Shown here piece after piece: positions 6,001 through 12,000 of a stretch of DNA of 61,742 nt. Position numbers: made by a program. Within the stretch, counting starts at the first letter, position 1. Every line of letters begins with the position of its first letter. The DNA lies in IMG/VR virus record IMGVR_UViG_646311924_000011, one strand, 5' to 3'. This stretch comes from a virus (taxonomy: Duplodnaviria > Heunggongvirae > Uroviricota > Caudoviricetes).

Positions 6001-9000
6001 AATCAGAATGGGATGGAATCGTCGTATACAGGGGTGTTCTGCTGGTTACTACTTTGCTGCTGCGGGCCATTTCCTGAAGCTGCAAATCCAATCTTTGCAT
6101 TCAGTAATTCAAGAGTGATTGATTGACCATTTTGCCCCTGATAAACATCAACCCTGATGTTTTCTCCGGTAATTTCTACAATGCCACCTTCAACAAGAAC
6201 ACTACGGTAGTAATCCGCTTGCGCTCCCGGCTTGGCAAATACAACGGCGTTGTAGTTTGTCCATTCTTTCTTTTTTGTCTGGCGATCGTAATACTGAACG
6301 CCAGCACGGATGTTGAATCCGATATTTTCCCCGGCCTGAAACTCTCTTGCGGGCTTGTTTAGTCTTACAGTAATCGAATGTGCCATTAAGCAGCCGCTCC
6401 TTCTAATTCGTCTCGTCTGATGTTGTAAACGTCCTGCGCTTTGTGCTGCTCCGGTGTGCCTTCGAGCATCTTCCACGCTTTGGCGAACGCCTGTTTAAGC
6501 TCTTCTACGGTGTTTTTCTGCAATGCTGCGTCAGTGAATGCTTTTAGAACCTGTTCAGGTGTAGGTGATGGTTTTGATTGCTTTGCTGCTGCGTTCTGCT
6601 GATGTTTATGCTCGTCTGTATCTGCATCTTTCGCATCATCAATGCCGAACAAACCATTGAGGCAATACTTGCGTGCATAAGAGCTTGTAGCTCCCGTAAC
6701 TTGTGCAGAATCCATTCCTTTCTTGCTTTCTTCCTCTCGTGCAAGAGCGGTTGCCGTATGACTGTTTTCGCCATCGGTAATAGTTGCCGTGGCTTTCACG
6801 TAATACCGATTACCAATCAACACAACTTCATCGCTGATTGATAAAAACAGACCATTCAGTAACGGCTTAACGCCTTCAAGAATGTCTTCGCAGCTTCTGT
6901 ATTTATATTTACCGAATGAGTTGTACTGATTCTTGGGCGCGTTCAGATTTTCCTGAATAGCTGCCAGTCTTGCGTAAAATTCTTTGCTCATATGATTGTT
7001 CTCAGAATGGACATGGCCCAAGGAAATAACGCTGATTTAATACTTCAGTCTTTGCCGCATTTAAAAATACGCGAACACCTTCACGATCTCCCTTCTGGCG
7101 ATACATTAACGCCTGCTGCGTGTACATGCGTCTCTGTAACTTGCTCTCCTTCACGGTGGTTGCAAGTGACATGAATATCTCCTTCGTTACCGATTAATTC
7201 TTTCATCTGACGAATGAATTCTTCGTCTGACCAGTTATCTGTAAAACTCATGGGCGGCCTTGTTGTTTCAAAATATCCCAAAGCTTTTCGAGCAAGCTTT
7301 TCATTCTTGGTTGTTTAAAGTCTGCTCCGGTTAAAATATTTTTTCGTGAATGCTGTACCGATAAAATCGGGTTGAAAGGGCGAACCGATGCCGCCCCTGC
7401 AATAGCGAACTGTTGCATAGGATGCTCCTTCTGTTTGATTGCATAACGAAAACGCCTCGAGTGAAGCGTTATTGGTATGCATATAAAAAGGCCCTCACAC
7501 TGGAGGGCAAAGAAGATTTCCAATAATCAGAACAAGTCGGCTCCTGTTTAGTTACGAGCGACATTGCTCCGTGTATTCACTCGTTGGAATGAATACACAG
7601 TGCTTATTCGTACTAATAAAACACCCAATTTTCTGTTTCTTGGTTGTGTCCAAAGTTATATTCAATATCTGGTATTGATGTATCAATATTCTTCATCCCA
7701 TCAACAAGAGTTGATACAACAGCCAAATCTTGTTTGATTCTCATTAAATGGTACTTCTTCCGGCGCAATAAACTTTCAATGGCAAGTTTCTTCGTCGGGA
7801 ATGCAAAAGATCTTTCGGCATTTTTTGCTACTTTCTTAATTGCATATCTATTTCTCCTTTGTTTCCATTCCTGTAACCACTGATTTGGTGCTGGTTTAAA
7901 ATTAACAATCCAATGCGCAGGAACCAACCATGCATAATGATCTGTCTGATGAAAAGCTATATATTGAAGTGCGAATATTTTTATCCCATCTTCTTCAACT
8001 GTCGCCTGGAATCTCCAGAAAACAGGCATTCCATCATGTTCAGTTTCTGATTCAGGAAAAGGTACGCTCCATGATTTTGTCATATCTCACCTCAAATAAG
8101 TGGTTTGCTGCCTAATTTCATTTTCTGGCGACCAACACAAGTCACCTCGCCGTCAGTTGTTTTGATTTCCGGTAGCCTGCCGCGTAAATGGCTACGTTTG
8201 GAAGACATACACCAGTTTCTGGTTGCTTATGTCCAAACTCATTCGCGTACACAATGGCCGCTCGCTCCAGATTGCGTCTGTATTCTTTCTGTTGCCAGAT
8301 CACGTCCTGTGCCATGAACTTAATTGGCTTAGCGTCTTCTATGCGCTCAGGCGTTTCGTGAGTACCTTTAGCCTGAATCTGCGCTCTGCTTAGAGTAGGG
8401 CGGTGTAATACTTCTGAACTTATTGCTTCTTCGCGGGCCAGTACGCCGTTAGCTAATGCCTTTGCCTTTAAACGCTCACGACGACGAGAACGTGAATTGC
8501 CTTTGAACTGAGTTCTGCGTGTCATATAGACCTCCTGATGAACTTTGGTGGTGTGGTAGGTGGGAGACCCATTTCGACCTGTTTCGGCCTACTTCAATTC
8601 GGCAATAGTCCCGCAGGCCTCGCCGCTTTACGTGCGACATATTCCCGTCCATGAACCCTTCACCACACCCCAAAGTTCACTTTGGTTATTGCGCTTTGTC
8701 AGCGCCGTAGATTCATATTCGAATCGTTGTATATTCACCGCCCTGGTGAGTAATGCGTCCTGCTGACGACGATAATAATGAACCAATAGTTCGACATTAT
8801 CAAGAACTATTGGTACGAATTTTGGTGATTTATTAACTCTACGAAGTATGATTCTGATATATAAGGAAATTTATTTTTGAAAATGTGGCTGATGAAGGTT
8901 ATGCGGCAGGGATCATAACTGCATGGTTTAGCGAGTTACATCAATAAATACAATTGGTTATGTTTTTTAGGTGGGCGAACGTGAGGCAAAGAAAACCCGG

Positions 9001-12000
9001 CGCTGAGGCCGGGCTAGATTTTAAAGTATTTATCTTTTAGAGATGTAGATGTAAAACTTTTCGCCTTTGAAAATTTTTTGTCATCAGAAGGGCTTATGAA
9101 CTCATCTTTTTTGTAGGGAACCGCTAATGCTGCATCACGTCTGCGAGGCAGCTTGCTTACTTCCTCGCGCTTTTTCATGATCAGTTATCCTTTAATAACC
9201 TATACAGTTTTGTAGGGGTACATCCTGAGGATATTGTTAAGTTCGTAGCACGCCTTTTCCGCCCATCATCGTATAAACGAAAACCAGTAGTAGACGAATT
9301 TTCTGCGTCAAAAACTATAGACAGTATAGCGTCCCCAGACTTTTTTTGCCATTCGCATGTGCCGTTAGTTGGTTTCGTCATCTGTAGACGCCAGTCAAGA
9401 ACGCCATCACTTATAGCTGAGAGATCGTTTAGTACATCTAGTACGGATTGATATCTTTCATTTGGATCTACATGAATGCATTTGTTCACTATTGTTATTA
9501 ATTTTTTATGTATATGGGGAGGATACTCTTTTAATGGATAGCAGCCATTAATTATCGACTCTCTGAGTTGTTCAATCGTGCTAAATGCAGATCTTTCTCT
9601 TTCAAAATTATCATGTCCAACACACATTCTATATATGGTTAATCCTGCCTGATATATGTCATATGTGAAATTATAATCATTTGTTGATAAAGAAAAATAT
9701 TCCGGTGGCACATGAAAATGATATCCAAACTCAGGCGCAGCTCTCGATTCCTCATTGACTAACTGAGATAATCCAAAGTCAGATAGCATGGCCTCATTTC
9801 TGTTTGATATCATAATGTTATTAGGTTTTATATCAAAATGCATAAGACCTTTTGAGTGTATATGATAAAGTCCACTTAAAAATTGAATGGAATACCGTAT
9901 TATCTCCCTGCTTGTAAGATTATTTTTTTTCATTAATTGGTTTAGCGAACCATTATGATAAAATGGCATGGCTATATAGATATTGCTCTCACATTGAGCA
10001 GCATACTGAACTTGCACAATATTTGGATGTGCATGTTTATAGAGAAGCCTTGCTTCATTAAAGTAGTCGTCGTGGTTAGTGTTTTCTTTTTTTTCTATTT
10101 CTTTAATCACCAAGTCATGAGCTAGGTGTCTGTCATGAGCCAGATATACTTTTGAAAAACAACCCTGTTCTTCTAGATCACTAATCCATTCGAATTCTAC
10201 ATCAGCTCTTTTGTATGGAGTTAGCATCCCCTTACCTCCGCAGATAGTGCAGCCAAAACAGCTTCATTTGTTTCAGTTGTAAAACCAGAATTATCGATTC
10301 CATTTATATTGCGGTGTGACTTCAATATTTCTTTATACTCGATCTCTGTTAGGTTCAATGATGATTTCATGCCAGATTTTCTAATAGTGTAATATTTTCT
10401 TACATCACTGCTTGAAAATGCTTCTTGAATAACAGCTTCTATATAAAGGCGGTCAATGCTAAGATTATCAGAGTTTGATTCAGTAACGCGTATGGCAGCT
10501 AATTCAACATTATATAAATTAAGAATGTCGAGGATGTTATTTCTCACATACTTTAATTTTTCTGGTGTGTCTAAGGTCGAAGGTATTTTAATAACATCAA
10601 CACATTTGAGTGCAGACTCATTAGTGCAATATACAACAAAAGATGTAACTTTGGGCGCCGCTCTAACACCTAGTATTCTCATTTTTTATATCCTATTTTA
10701 GAATCAGGCCGCATCTCTGCGACCATCCATCATCCAAACGTCTCTTCACTCATCCGAAGAAGCAGCAATCCGGGTTAGCACGCACAAGCTCAAGCGCATC
10801 AGTCAGCGAAAGTTCAGTACTGTACTGATGCCATTTCATATCCTTCCGCATCCAATAGATTTTCCATCTATCCAGAGAACGTATGTACTTGATTCTTGCT
10901 GATGGCAGGATGTTTGTTTCACCTGGATTGCCCTGCCACACGGGGCGCTGTTCGCCGATATCTATCGTTTGGTCATTGATGCTATAAACAATATCCAGTT
11001 CATTGCGGATATGTTCAGGCGGCCTTATGCTTTCAATGAATTGGTGAACTTCTTTTTTTACTGCTTGATATTCAAGGTCATTGAACGCCATCTATCCTCC
11101 TTACCCAAACGTCTCTTCAGGCCACTGGTTACCAGCTATGTGACGATGAAGTCACGAACTTTTCAGCCACTCCCTTGCCTCGATGTCATCCAGATGGCGA
11201 GATTGCTTCAGAATACCAGCTACATACTCCACCTTTGCTACTTGATGATAAGGCAACGTTATAGGCCTGTGATCCTGGTTAATGCTTGTAAATTGGTATT
11301 CTCCATCTCTGTCATAGCCAAGAACCTTAATCATGTTGTGTCCTTCAACGGTTCTGACAAACACCTCATCACCCGGGAATACTTTGGTGTTAGGCTCAAT
11401 GAGTACATATTCTCCTGATTTTATTCTGGGCCACATGCTGTCTCCTTTCACACGAAGACCAAAGGCATCTGGATCATCGCTATAAATTTTGAGCCACCCA
11501 TCGCGCTCTTCGGTCATCTCGATGGCACCATCAACACCAAGAATTGCCTCACCAACCACGCGCACTAACCCTTTTTTTAATTTGCCAACAAATGAAAGAG
11601 TATCTTCATCATTCGCTCCATTTAACGAAGTGCCGTGCTGAAGCCAAACAACATCAACGTTTAGAAATTTCGCAAGCGCATTCATTTTTTCCTGACGCGG
11701 TAAAGACTCAGCATTAAACCATTTGCTAACGCCTTTGGACGAAAGAGAAAGGGCACGGGCTATAGCCATTCCCCTACCATGTTCATCAAGACCAGCTTCT
11801 TTACAGGCTTGCGCTAGCCGCTGGGCGAATTCTTTGCGCACTTTTTCATTCTGAACCATGAGTACGATACTAAAGCACTTGCAAAAACTTTCAGTTCAAC
11901 CATAATACGTACTGAAAGTACGAAAAAGGATATTCCTATGCAAAATCTTGATGAGCCGATTAAAGGTGTCGGCATCCCTGAAGTTGCGAAGGCTTGTGGA

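What the first reader, a model, noticed from the sequence alone, without database searches (positions are those of the whole stretch)
8981..11151. AT-rich kinase-centred cassette in the cI-downstream (rex) position
Co-directional with cI and ending at a strong terminator (8981-9013) lie a 113-aa ORF, a 153-aa ORF whose stop overlaps the next start, a Hanks-type Ser/Thr kinase (HFDIKPNN, DFG, VIK motifs) and an unannotated 54-aa basic ORF. The kinase and its upstream partner are visibly AT-rich against the backbone. This is the slot where lambda carries rexAB, a classic prophage exclusion locus, and a 933W kinase (Stk) at this position has been reported to cause abortive infection on superinfection. 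The accessory ORFs have no recognisable motifs and could be sensor or regulator components of a multi-gene defence module.
Basis: partly seen in the sequence, partly recalled or inferred. Interest (0 to 1): 0.85.

Follow-up and report, generated by a model that had tools for sequence, protein, structure and literature searches.

The report
Three-gene Stk kinase phage-exclusion module
This is the known Stk kinase "exclusion" locus of Shiga-toxin phage 933W, but comparison with about 100 related loci shows that the kinase always travels with a RuvC-shaped partner protein lacking RuvC's key catalytic residue and usually a tiny basic protein, while the fourth gene (DUF3024) is a separate passenger.

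Summary
The window is 100% identical here to Stx2-converting phage I and 933W. Downstream of cI, on the minus strand, lie DUF3024 (113 aa), a 153-aa ORF, stk (348 aa), a 54-aa basic ORF and the terminator tM.

The kinase is the published Stk, reported to abort HK97 infection, so the core is already known.

The new points are:
1. **Two mosaic units, not one cassette.** DUF3024 (10740-11128; PADLOC candidate PDC-S43) occurs in 144 phage records, usually without the kinase. The unit 8988-10743 (153-aa ORF, stk, 54-aa ORF and tM; 36% GC against 50% for the window) moves on its own.
2. **The 153-aa protein and the kinase are never found apart.** In about 100 loci with readable downstream DNA (100% down to 29% identity; Proteobacteria, Bacteroidota, Bacilli, Clostridia) the kinase starts at or just after the partner's stop. 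A 50-66-aa basic ORF follows in most non-redundant loci.

Likely mechanism (inferred): a three-part abortive-infection switch in which the partner proteins regulate or sense for the kinase.

The parts
8994..9015 (-). tM, the intrinsic terminator that ends the cI operon and the kinase module. It sits just upstream of the pL/nutL region.
   Evidence: Terminator scan: 8 pairs, 6 G-C, then a T-run. RNA fold -14.5 kcal/mol, z = -2.6. Annotated tM in 933W at 9915-9936, which is window 8992-9013. It is carried along with the module in L043/L044/L047.
9014..9178 (-). 54-aa basic protein (pI 10, 16 K+R, 11 S/T/Y), referred to here as S54. It is the third gene of the kinase module. It has a basic N-terminus, then RRRDAALAVPY, and a C-terminal KYFKI.
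   Evidence: ORF. phrog_4063, function unknown. A 50-66-aa ORF starts 0-24 nt after, or overlaps, the kinase stop in 24 of 28 non-redundant viral, prophage and SPbeta loci and in 18 of 24 genome loci. Some of these are sequence-homologous; the distant ones match in position and motif only. dN/dS is 0.10-0.26 in unsaturated comparisons.
9181..10227 (-). stk, a Hanks-type protein kinase of the non-RD class (HFD). Kinase domain is about residues 20-273. A poorly conserved C-terminal extension covers residues 275-348.
   Evidence: Pfam Pkinase E = 2.2e-46. 100% identical to 933W stk. K42, E58, H129, D131, K133, N136, DFG and PE are invariant in 27 module kinases, while the C-terminus is variable. 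PADLOC and NCBIfam hits cover the kinase domain only and fall below the equivalog cut-offs.
10221..10682 (-). 153-aa RuvC-fold protein, referred to here as A (933W L0083/p23; 'res' in phi24B). It is the obligate upstream partner of the kinase. RuvC's catalytic Asp7 is replaced by an Arg conserved across the family.
8988..10743 (-). Extent of the mobile three-gene unit: a 61-nt leader, A, stk, S54 and tM.
   Evidence: L043/L044/L047 share 97% identity over exactly window 10743-8988, behind a different repressor and with no DUF3024. L050 and L061 share 79% and 67% identity over the same span. GC is 0.362 against 0.496 for the window.
10750..11091 (-). DUF3024 protein, 113 aa. It is an independent single-gene unit (homology block about 10740-11128).
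11152..11859 (-). cI repressor (HTH plus S24 peptidase), the first gene of the operon.
   Evidence: Pfam. 933W annotation. It is swapped independently of the downstream genes in L016, L018, L028 and L039, with the break at window 11128.
11852..11922 (.). oR3-oR2-oR1 with pM (pRM) and pR, the promoter region that drives the operon in the lysogen.
   Evidence: 933W record features at 12775-12845, converted with window = record - 923. The same features are annotated in phi24B.

Best explanation
The span holds two independent accessory-gene units in the cI-to-N ('rex') slot of a 933W-type Stx prophage. Both are transcribed with cI in the lysogen and end at tM.

Unit 1 is DUF3024, a single gene of unknown function.

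Unit 2 (8988-10743) is a three-gene operon with closely spaced or overlapping genes, which suggests translational coupling. It encodes a RuvC-fold protein ('A') whose nuclease active site has been rebuilt around arginines, the Hanks-type kinase Stk, and a 54-aa basic protein ('S54').

Unit 2 is the published Stk abortive-infection system. Stk is kept nearly silent in the lysogen. A protein of an incoming heterologous phage (HK97) switches it on. Runaway phosphorylation then kills the infected cell before the phage matures.

My inference concerns the two partner proteins. I propose that they are integral subunits. A would act as a stoichiometric scaffold or regulator that no longer cuts DNA, and may still read DNA structure or a phage recombination protein. 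S54 would act as a short docking or pseudosubstrate-like regulator. The variable C-terminal tail of Stk would tune specificity.

Shown here: identity, gene order, unit boundaries, A's fold, loss of RuvC's catalytic Asp, obligate linkage of A and the kinase, purifying selection, and intact kinase catalytic residues.

Taken from the literature: exclusion of HK97, expression from pRM, and detection of A and DUF3024 proteins in lysogens.

Inferred: the roles of A and S54.
For: - **Identity.** 100% identical to 933W and Stx2 phage I over 3 kb, with matching annotation.
- **Linkage.** A kinase lies directly downstream of an A homologue in Bacillus phage SPbetaL7 (A 35%, kinase 40% identity, overlapping genes), in Klebsiella and Proteus prophages and a Wadjet-adjacent locus, in every viral locus of 68 where downstream DNA was available (one contig ended inside A), and in 24 of 24 genome loci spanning gamma-, beta- and alpha-Proteobacteria, Bacteroidota and Clostridia.
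- **Gene spacing.** A's stop and the kinase start are -8 to +12 nt apart.
- **One-to-one match in the phage collection.** Full-length Stk matches occur in 41 records, and A matches also occur in 41 (39 E. coli-type and 2 Bacillus in each search).
- **Co-inheritance.** Identities of A and the kinase fall together: 99/97, 85/81, 70/57, 59/52, 47/47, 39/43, 32/41.
- **Unit boundaries.**
- **A's fold and active site.**
- **Selection.** dN/dS is 0.04-0.09 for A, 0.08-0.23 for the kinase, and 0.10-0.26 for S54 in unsaturated comparisons.
- **Kinase residues.** The catalytic residues are invariant.
- **Third gene.** A small ORF is present in most loci.
- **Upstream neighbours.** These are mostly cI-type repressors of different families.
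- **Defence and mobile-element neighbours elsewhere.** Wadjet JetC/JetD, AbiEii, restriction-modification methylases, integrases.
- **Literature.** Stk aborts HK97 infection and shows little activity in uninfected cells (PMC3681748; PMC3564112; PMC6356687). stk is expressed from pRM (PMC3430580). Proteins of 17,096 Da (A) and 13,472 Da (DUF3024) were detected in phi24B lysogens, and the transcripts of both genes were lysogen-restricted (PMC3342100; masses matched; PMC4651098).
Against: - No experiment read here tests A or S54. I could not read the primary Stk papers (Friedman 2011; Tyler and Friedman 2004). If they excluded HK97 with stk alone on a plasmid, A and S54 are not strictly required.
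- No complex prediction or binding data were possible, so the claim that A is a subunit rests on synteny and gene spacing.
- Mapping of RuvC's E66, D138 and D141 onto A comes from sequence register and secondary structure, not from a residue-level superposition. Only the D7-to-R7 replacement is directly aligned, and that hhalign match has low probability.
- A keeps invariant E68, E82, E87 and E140, so a different catalytic activity is not excluded.
- The small ORF is not recognisably homologous across the most distant loci. There it is conserved only in position, size and a short motif. No ATG-initiated ORF was found in 6 of 24 genome loci (one contig ended there).
- The MALDI identifications of A and DUF3024 in Riley 2012 had non-significant MASCOT scores.
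Confidence: 0.6

Rival explanations
1. All four genes, including DUF3024, form one functional defence system. DUF3024 would act as its sensor or regulator.
For: - DUF3024 lies directly upstream of A in the 933W type.
- A second DUF3024 lineage, 37-40% identical, lies directly upstream of a 70%-identical A in Proteus-type prophages (L051-L055, L059, L087).
- Both genes are expressed in lysogens.
- DUF3024 is a PADLOC defence candidate.
Against: - DUF3024 is in 144 phage records against 41 for A and stk.
- It stands behind cI with other cargo or alone in SE1, Stx2-II, Rouxiella and Yersinia.
- L043-L048 carry A at 99% and Stk at 97% identity with no DUF3024, and 22 of 24 genome loci lack it.
- Homology breakpoints fall exactly between DUF3024 and A.
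- GC differs: 0.44 against 0.35.
- Both units favour the post-cI slot, so their adjacency can be positional.
Confidence: 0.1
2. Stk alone is the complete exclusion system. The 153-aa protein is an ordinary phage Holliday-junction resolvase, as databases label it, and the 54-aa ORF is incidental.
For: - PHROG, RefSeq and phi24B annotations say 'RuvC-like resolvase'.
- The RuvC fold is real.
- The papers available to me that cite the Stk work mention only the kinase.
Against: - RuvC's catalytic Asp7 is Arg in 191 of 192 family members.
- The Pfam RuvC score is below the cut-off.
- The gene's transcript was lysogen-restricted and its expression was not raised by induction, which is unlike a lytic recombination gene.
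- It was next to a Stk-type kinase in every locus examined, including non-phage contexts.
- The genes overlap.
- S54 is under purifying selection.
Confidence: 0.1
3. The three-gene unit is mainly a toxin-antitoxin-like stabilisation or lysogen-physiology module. The kinase would be the toxin or signalling enzyme, with A or S54 as antidote. HK97 exclusion would be a side effect.
For: - The tight gene overlap and the arrangement of a small partner plus a potentially lethal enzyme resemble type II TA operons.
- The kinase is nearly silent in uninfected cells (PMC3681748).
- Frameshifted or IS-disrupted copies exist, as expected for a costly gene.
Against: - A is the slowest-evolving gene and has a RuvC fold with no HTH, unlike typical antitoxins.
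- The unit lies in the prophage slot that also holds rexAB and BstA (PMC8585504).
- It lies next to Wadjet, AbiE or restriction-modification genes in some genomes.
- An stk deletion gave no virulence phenotype.
Confidence: 0.15

Closest known systems
933W Stk prophage exclusion system (Tyler & Friedman 2004; Friedman et al. 2011)
   Same: It is this very locus. The DNA is 100% identical. The kinase lies downstream of cI, is expressed from pRM, and is reported to abort HK97 infection.
   Different: In the papers I could read, the system is described as the kinase alone. Here the kinase is shown to be one part of a conserved three-gene unit, with a RuvC-fold partner and a 54-aa protein. That unit is distributed far beyond Stx phages.
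Staphylococcus Stk2 (Depardieu et al. 2016)
   Same: It is a eukaryote-like kinase activated by a phage protein, leading to broad phosphorylation and abortive infection (PMC13276650).
   Different: Stk2 is described as a single gene that signals through host Stk1. No RuvC-fold or micro-protein partner is described. Sequence relation to 933W Stk is limited to the generic kinase domain.
Lambda RexAB
   Same: Same genomic slot between cI and N. Co-transcribed with the repressor. A prophage abortive-infection system with separate sensor and effector (PMC8585504; PMC3564112).
   Different: No sequence or fold relation, and no Rex hit in PADLOC. The effector is a kinase rather than a membrane protein.
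PD-T4-6 and MADS MAD6 kinases (PADLOC / NCBIfam models)
   Same: Hanks kinase domains used in anti-phage defence. Stk matches their HMMs over the kinase domain (E = 1e-37 and 7e-50).
   Different: Matches stop at about residue 275-295. The NCBIfam MAD6 score is 122 bits against an equivalog cut-off of 460. No other MADS genes are nearby. PADLOC lists the PD-T4-6 models as kinases only and has no model for A.
RuvC Holliday-junction resolvase
   Different: 12-15% identity. Below the Pfam cut-off. Catalytic Asp7 is replaced by Arg across the family, and Glu66 probably by Arg/Lys65. Expression was lysogen-restricted, and the gene was next to a kinase in every locus examined.

Membership tests
933W Stk exclusion system | Kinase identical or near-identical to 933W Stk, encoded downstream of cI and upstream of tM | tested here: met
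   100% identity over window 8900-11900 to AF125520 and NC_000924. The annotation matches.
933W Stk exclusion system | Kinase-dependent abortive exclusion of HK97 | not testable with these tools
   Known only from secondary citations (PMC3681748, PMC3564112, PMC6356687). The primary paper was not held.
Hanks-type protein kinase (Pfam PF00069) | Score above the gathering cut-off, with catalytic Lys, alphaC Glu, HxD...N loop and DFG | tested here: met
   158.8 bits against 31.7. K42, E58, H129, D131, N136 and D150-F-G are invariant in 27 relatives. The loop reads HFD rather than HRD, so it is a non-RD kinase.
RuvC resolvase (Pfam PF02075) | RNase H-like RuvC fold | tested here: met
RuvC resolvase (Pfam PF02075) | Family HMM score above the curated cut-off | tested here: not met
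   14.2 bits against a cut-off of 22.2, E = 0.042. No NCBIfam RuvC hit.
RuvC resolvase (Pfam PF02075) | Four acidic catalytic residues (E. coli D7, E66, D138, D141) | tested here: not met
   The position equivalent to D7 is Arg in 191 of 192 family members. The position equivalent to E66 aligns with R/K65. Only E140 (about D141) is conserved, and E137 is variable. Mapping other than D7 is by register, not by superposition.
Lambda RexAB | RexA and RexB homologues | tested here: not met
   No Rex models among the PADLOC hits for any of the ORFs. Only the genomic position is shared.
PD-T4-6 (PADLOC) | Match to PD-T4-6 kinase HMMs | tested here: inconclusive
   Best E = 1e-37, but it covers the kinase domain only (residues 20-273). 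More than 20 PD-T4-6 HMMs hit, as does any Hanks kinase model. I did not compare the original PD-T4-6 protein or its neighbours.
MADS (MAD6 kinase) | Equivalog-level match to MAD6, with the other mad genes nearby | tested here: not met
   NCBIfam MAD6 scores 122 bits against a cut-off of 460. The neighbours are cI, DUF3024 and N.
DUF3024 / PADLOC candidate PDC-S43 | Full-length match to the family HMM | tested here: met
   Pfam 106.5 bits against 24.9 over residues 4-113. PADLOC PDC-S43 E = 4.4e-41 over residues 1-113.
DUF3024 / PADLOC candidate PDC-S43 | Anti-phage activity | not testable with these tools
   It is only a candidate in PADLOC. No paper in the library mentions DUF3024, and one preprint mentions PDC-S43 in passing.
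HipBA-type kinase toxin-antitoxin | HipA-fold kinase with an HTH antitoxin upstream | tested here: not met
   The kinase is Hanks-type with no HipA domains, and the upstream protein has a RuvC fold with no HTH.

The most novel reading that the evidence does not exclude
The RuvC-fold protein may be a converted nuclease that now acts as a sensor. It would recognise branched recombination or replication DNA, or the invading phage's recombinase itself, and switch on the attached eukaryote-like kinase. That would be a bacterial 'DNA-structure checkpoint kinase' immune pathway, conserved from Enterobacterales to Bacteroidota and Firmicutes, with the 54-aa protein as a built-in pseudosubstrate brake.

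A supporting lead, which I could not verify: I recall that the HK97 trigger of Stk is gp41. By gene order in the HK97 record, gp41 is the Erf-like single-strand annealing recombinase.
Probability: 0.15. Interest if true: 0.8.

Novelty: new variant of a known kind. Interest (0 to 1): 0.5.

Why it matters
Stk of 933W is one of the earliest examples of a kinase-based abortive-infection system. How it stays silent and how a phage protein switches it on are not explained in anything I could read.

Showing that the kinase is never inherited without a RuvC-fold partner that lacks RuvC's catalytic aspartate, and usually with a small basic protein, gives two concrete candidates for the missing control and sensing parts. 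The system becomes a defined three-gene unit that can be cloned and tested in E. coli. Ready-made natural variants exist from Bacillus, Clostridium and Bacteroidota.

It also corrects a widespread database label. 'RuvC-like Holliday junction resolvase' is very unlikely to be the function.

It separates DUF3024, an untested defence candidate, as an independent gene.

The module is in 226 of 5,426 complete E. coli genomes, mostly Shiga-toxin strains. It may therefore shape which phages can superinfect or mobilise in these pathogens.

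Tried and rejected
1. **DUF3024 as an AvrPto-like kinase inhibitor.** A single-sequence PDB hit to AvrPto (E = 0.07) disappeared with a family profile. The predicted fold is alpha+beta, not a helical bundle. Rejected.
3. **A as an active RuvC.** Rejected on the catalytic residues.
4. **One four-gene cassette.** Rejected on distribution and breakpoints.
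5. **Stk as a member of MAD6, PknB or PglW.** All scores are far below the equivalog cut-offs.
6. **Internal promoters.** The consensus scan found no more promoter-like sites than shuffled sequence, and none in the 67-nt gap before A.
7. **Primary papers.** The Stk papers (DOI, PMID, PMC415781, PMC524894) are not held.
8. A broad 63-sequence alignment was too diverse for the genome scan. The afdb50 fold library was unavailable.
9. **Literature searches.** Searches for a described RuvC-plus-kinase defence system, for DUF3024 and for PD-T4-6 mechanism found nothing relevant.

Full report
**What is there**

On the minus strand the window carries five ORFs followed by a hairpin-plus-U-run terminator at 9015..8994:
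- cI at 11152-11859
- a 113-aa ORF at 10750-11091
- a 153-aa ORF at 10221-10682
- a 348-aa kinase at 9181-10227
- a 54-aa ORF at 9014-9178

The 153-aa stop overlaps the kinase start by 7 nt (ATGCTAA). The kinase stop is 2 nt from the 54-aa start. The 54-aa stop abuts the terminator stem.

GC is 0.35-0.38 for the three distal genes. It is 0.44-0.45 for the 113-aa ORF and cI, and 0.496 for the whole window.

**Identity**

Positions 8900-11900 are 100% identical to Stx2-converting phage I (AP004402), 933W, phi24B and many other Stx phages. In 933W the genes are annotated as cI, ST933Wp24 (DUF3024), ST933Wp23 ('RuvC-like Holliday junction resolvase'), stk, ST933Wp21 and the terminator tM. phi24B names the 153-aa gene 'res' and the 113-aa gene vb_24B_13c. 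The 54-aa ORF is therefore not unannotated.

**What is already known**

The papers I could read make these statements:
- 933W Stk is a eukaryote-like kinase cotranscribed with cI, and its activity aborts HK97 superinfection (PMC3564112; PMC6356687).
- It has little or no activity in uninfected cells (PMC3681748).
- It is expressed from pRM during stable lysogeny (PMC3430580).
- In phi24B lysogens, proteins of 17,096 Da and 13,472 Da were picked up by 2D-PAGE and MALDI. These masses are exactly those of the 153-aa and 113-aa products. Both genes' transcripts were lysogen-restricted (PMC3342100).
- RNA-seq found cI, stk and res unchanged by induction (PMC4651098).

I could not read the two primary Stk papers.

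**Protein families**

- *Kinase.* It is a clear Hanks-type kinase (Pfam E = 2e-46). K42, E58, H129-x-D131, N136, DFG and PE are invariant among 27 non-redundant relatives, whereas residues 275-348 are poorly conserved. The catalytic loop reads HFD, so it is a non-RD kinase. Its HxDxKPxN form is the Ser/Thr type (my knowledge), although the literature calls Stk a tyrosine kinase (reference title). PADLOC hits (mad6, PD-T4-6) and NCBIfam hits (MAD6, PknB, PglW) cover only the kinase domain and lie far below the equivalog cut-offs.
- *113-aa protein.* It is DUF3024 (Pfam E = 1e-30) and matches the PADLOC single-gene candidate PDC-S43 over its full length (E = 4e-41).
- *54-aa protein.* It belongs to phrog_4063, of unknown function. 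Its pI is 10.
- *153-aa protein.* It has no Pfam, NCBIfam or PADLOC family. Pfam RuvC scores 14.2 bits against a cut-off of 22.2.

**The 153-aa protein ('A')**

The active site, however, is not RuvC's:
- The N-terminal strand reads ILGVR7 where RuvC reads ILGID7 (hhalign alignment).
- In 192 family members with a median identity of 35%, the residue at position 7 is Arg in 191.
- Position 65, in register with RuvC's E66, is always Arg or Lys.
- E68 is conserved in 190 of 192, and R47, R78, E82, E87 and E/D140 in all 192.

This is a tightly held charged constellation, not a decayed site. A is the most constrained of the three genes (dN/dS 0.04-0.09). A two-metal RuvC-type nuclease activity is very unlikely. 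The family is sizeable: 446 clusters at 50% identity, nearly all stand-alone proteins of 150-165 aa.

**Linkage**

Bacillus phage SPbetaL7 carries a 167-aa homologue of A (35% identity) whose stop overlaps a 350-aa kinase. That kinase is 40% identical to Stk through most of its length and is followed by a 60-aa ORF.

The same order is seen in several other settings:
- In Klebsiella and Proteus prophages, A and the kinase sit behind different repressor types, and a 53-59-aa ORF follows in most of them.
- In one metagenomic contig, A and the kinase sit beside Wadjet jetC/jetD; that contig ends inside the kinase.

Across 68 IMG/VR loci (A identity 100% down to 32%), a Stk homologue follows A wherever downstream DNA exists. 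The spacing is -8 to +12 nt.

A scan of one genome per species returned 24 loci, and the kinase follows A in all 24. They come from:
- Gammaproteobacteria: Xenorhabdus, Proteus, Marinobacter, Marinobacterium, Sessilibacter, Psychromonas, Photobacterium, Acinetobacter, Psychrobacter, Pseudoxanthomonas, Thermomonas, Cellvibrionaceae
- Betaproteobacteria: Lampropedia
- Alphaproteobacteria: Terasakiella, Pontixanthobacter
- Bacteroidota: Sphingobacterium, Pedobacter, Cytophagales
- Clostridia: Clostridium carboxidivorans, Lachnoclostridium

In the phage collection, full-length Stk matches occur in 41 records and A matches also occur in 41 (39 E. coli-type and 2 Bacillus in each search). The other 25 kinase hits cover the kinase domain only. 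A and kinase identities decline together, as expected for co-inheritance without shuffling.

**The small ORF**

A 50-66-aa ORF starts 0-24 nt after, or overlaps, the kinase stop in 24 of 28 non-redundant viral, prophage and SPbeta loci and in 18 of 24 genome loci. A few lack one or carry an odd-sized ORF. These ORFs share:
- a basic N-terminus (MKK...)
- a short motif centred on an invariant Arg: [S/T/R]-R-x-x-[L/A], here RRRDAAL, and LSRSAL, LTRSEL or LSRQDL elsewhere
- often a following P-[Y/F]

Among Enterobacterales they are alignable (36-93% identity) and under purifying selection, with dN/dS 0.10-0.26 in unsaturated pairs. Reading RRxA as a pseudosubstrate-like element is my speculation.

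**Mosaic structure**

- L043, L044 and L047 share 97% identity with the window over exactly 10743 to 8988. That span covers the leader, A, stk, S54 and tM. These loci have a different S24 repressor upstream and no DUF3024.
- Salmonella phage SE1 shares only 11113 to 10740, which is DUF3024. There it is followed by a ParA-like ATPase.
- Stx2 phage II shares 11128 to 10706 and then jumps to the terminator at 9013.
- Four loci keep DUF3024 and the kinase unit but swap cI at 11128.

DUF3024 is in 144 phage records. It is tandemly duplicated behind cI in a Rouxiella prophage and sits next to a P63C-domain gene in Yersinia ruckeri.

A second DUF3024 lineage (37-40% identity) does sit directly upstream of A in Proteus-type prophages. 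I therefore keep a small probability that the two units interact. But both units favour the post-repressor slot, which is enough to explain the adjacency.

The DUF3024 model (pLDDT 89) is a helix, a five-stranded sheet and a helix, with no convincing structural relative. An AvrPto sequence hit was chance.

**Context**

The gene immediately upstream of the unit is usually a cI-type repressor, drawn from several different families. The unit therefore repeatedly lands in the same prophage slot as rexAB and BstA (PMC8585504).

Outside prophages its neighbours include Wadjet, AbiEii, restriction-modification methylases, integrases and a relaxase, mixed with housekeeping genes.

In E. coli the unit is in 226 of 5,426 complete genomes. 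Some copies are disrupted by IS3 elements or frameshifts.

**Mechanism**

- *Shown.* This is a three-gene, tightly spaced operon, constrained by selection and expressed in the lysogen. The kinase is catalytically intact. The partner protein has a RuvC fold but not RuvC's catalytic Asp.
- *From the literature.* The kinase is quiet until HK97 infects, and then aborts the infection.
- *Inferred, and what I commit to (about 0.45 for the regulatory-subunit role; 0.6 for the explanation as a whole).* A and S54 are subunits that hold Stk inactive and/or relay the phage signal. The fast-evolving Stk tail and S54 are the likelier determinants of specificity. A, which evolves slowly, is a core scaffold or a DNA/protein-recognition element.
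- *A lead for the sensor idea.* I recall, without being able to check, that the HK97 trigger is gp41. By gene order in the HK97 record, gp41 is the Erf-like annealing recombinase. That would fit a partner derived from a junction-binding enzyme.

**Verdict**

The core of the finding, a kinase exclusion locus in the rex slot, is already known. The window is the type example.

The added value has four parts:
- the redefinition of the system as a conserved three-gene unit found in several phyla
- the correction of the 'resolvase' label
- the separation of DUF3024 as an independent gene
- a set of direct experiments that would settle the roles of the partner proteins

I rate interest as moderate.

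Noticed in passing
window 7613-8083 (-): A 156-aa ORF between N and ea10 (phrog_1636, 'similar to HK97 gp45'). It has no Pfam or PADLOC hit, and local GC is about 0.36-0.38. It is another AT-rich gene of unknown function in the early left operon.
   Followed up: partly
window ~10356-10436 (inside the 153-aa ORF): The AP004402 record annotates three 'putative operators' and a 'putative maintenance promoter for CI' inside the coding sequence of the RuvC-fold gene. This looks like a pattern-match artefact, but Riley 2012 reported transcripts of the downstream genes far above cI. An internal promoter is therefore worth testing.
   Followed up: no
L026, L029, L032 (E. coli prophage contigs), L074; NZ_CP157162 and NZ_CP044315: Some copies of stk are split into two reading frames. 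In two complete E. coli genomes the module is interrupted by an IS3-family element. This suggests occasional inactivation of a costly gene, or sequencing errors.
   Followed up: partly
L083 3352-4342 (Rouxiella badensis prophage); L004 3001-4554 (Salmonella phage SE1): DUF3024 is tandemly duplicated directly behind an S24 repressor in Rouxiella. In SE1 it is followed by a ParA-like ATPase. It behaves as a recurrent 'first gene after cI'.
   Followed up: partly
PMC3342100, Tables 2 and 3: Riley 2012 labels the two post-cI proteins inconsistently. In Table 2, P2 is 17,096 Da (p23) and P3 is 13,472 Da (p24), while Table 3 gives the accessions the other way round. The computed masses assign 17,096 Da to the RuvC-fold protein and 13,472 Da to DUF3024.
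   Followed up: yes
L110 3176-3781 (HK97 24175-24780) and L110 5910-6814: By gene order, HK97 gp41 is the Erf-like single-strand annealing protein. HK97's own cI-to-N slot carries two uncharacterised genes, gp48 and gp49.
   Followed up: no
L072 1244-1621; L086 2406-2783 (Xenorhabdus): L072 has a PA-IL (LecA-type lectin) domain gene directly upstream of the kinase module. L086 (Xenorhabdus) has an ORF of the same length in the same place, and one PA-IL match was found among the pooled neighbour ORFs. It may be another cargo gene sharing the slot.
   Followed up: no
L003 2814-5744 (Bacillus phage SPbetaL7): In the SPbeta-like phages L6 and L7 the module sits just after a tyrosine-recombinase-family gene rather than a repressor. 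The promoter context therefore differs from that in lambdoid phages.
   Followed up: no
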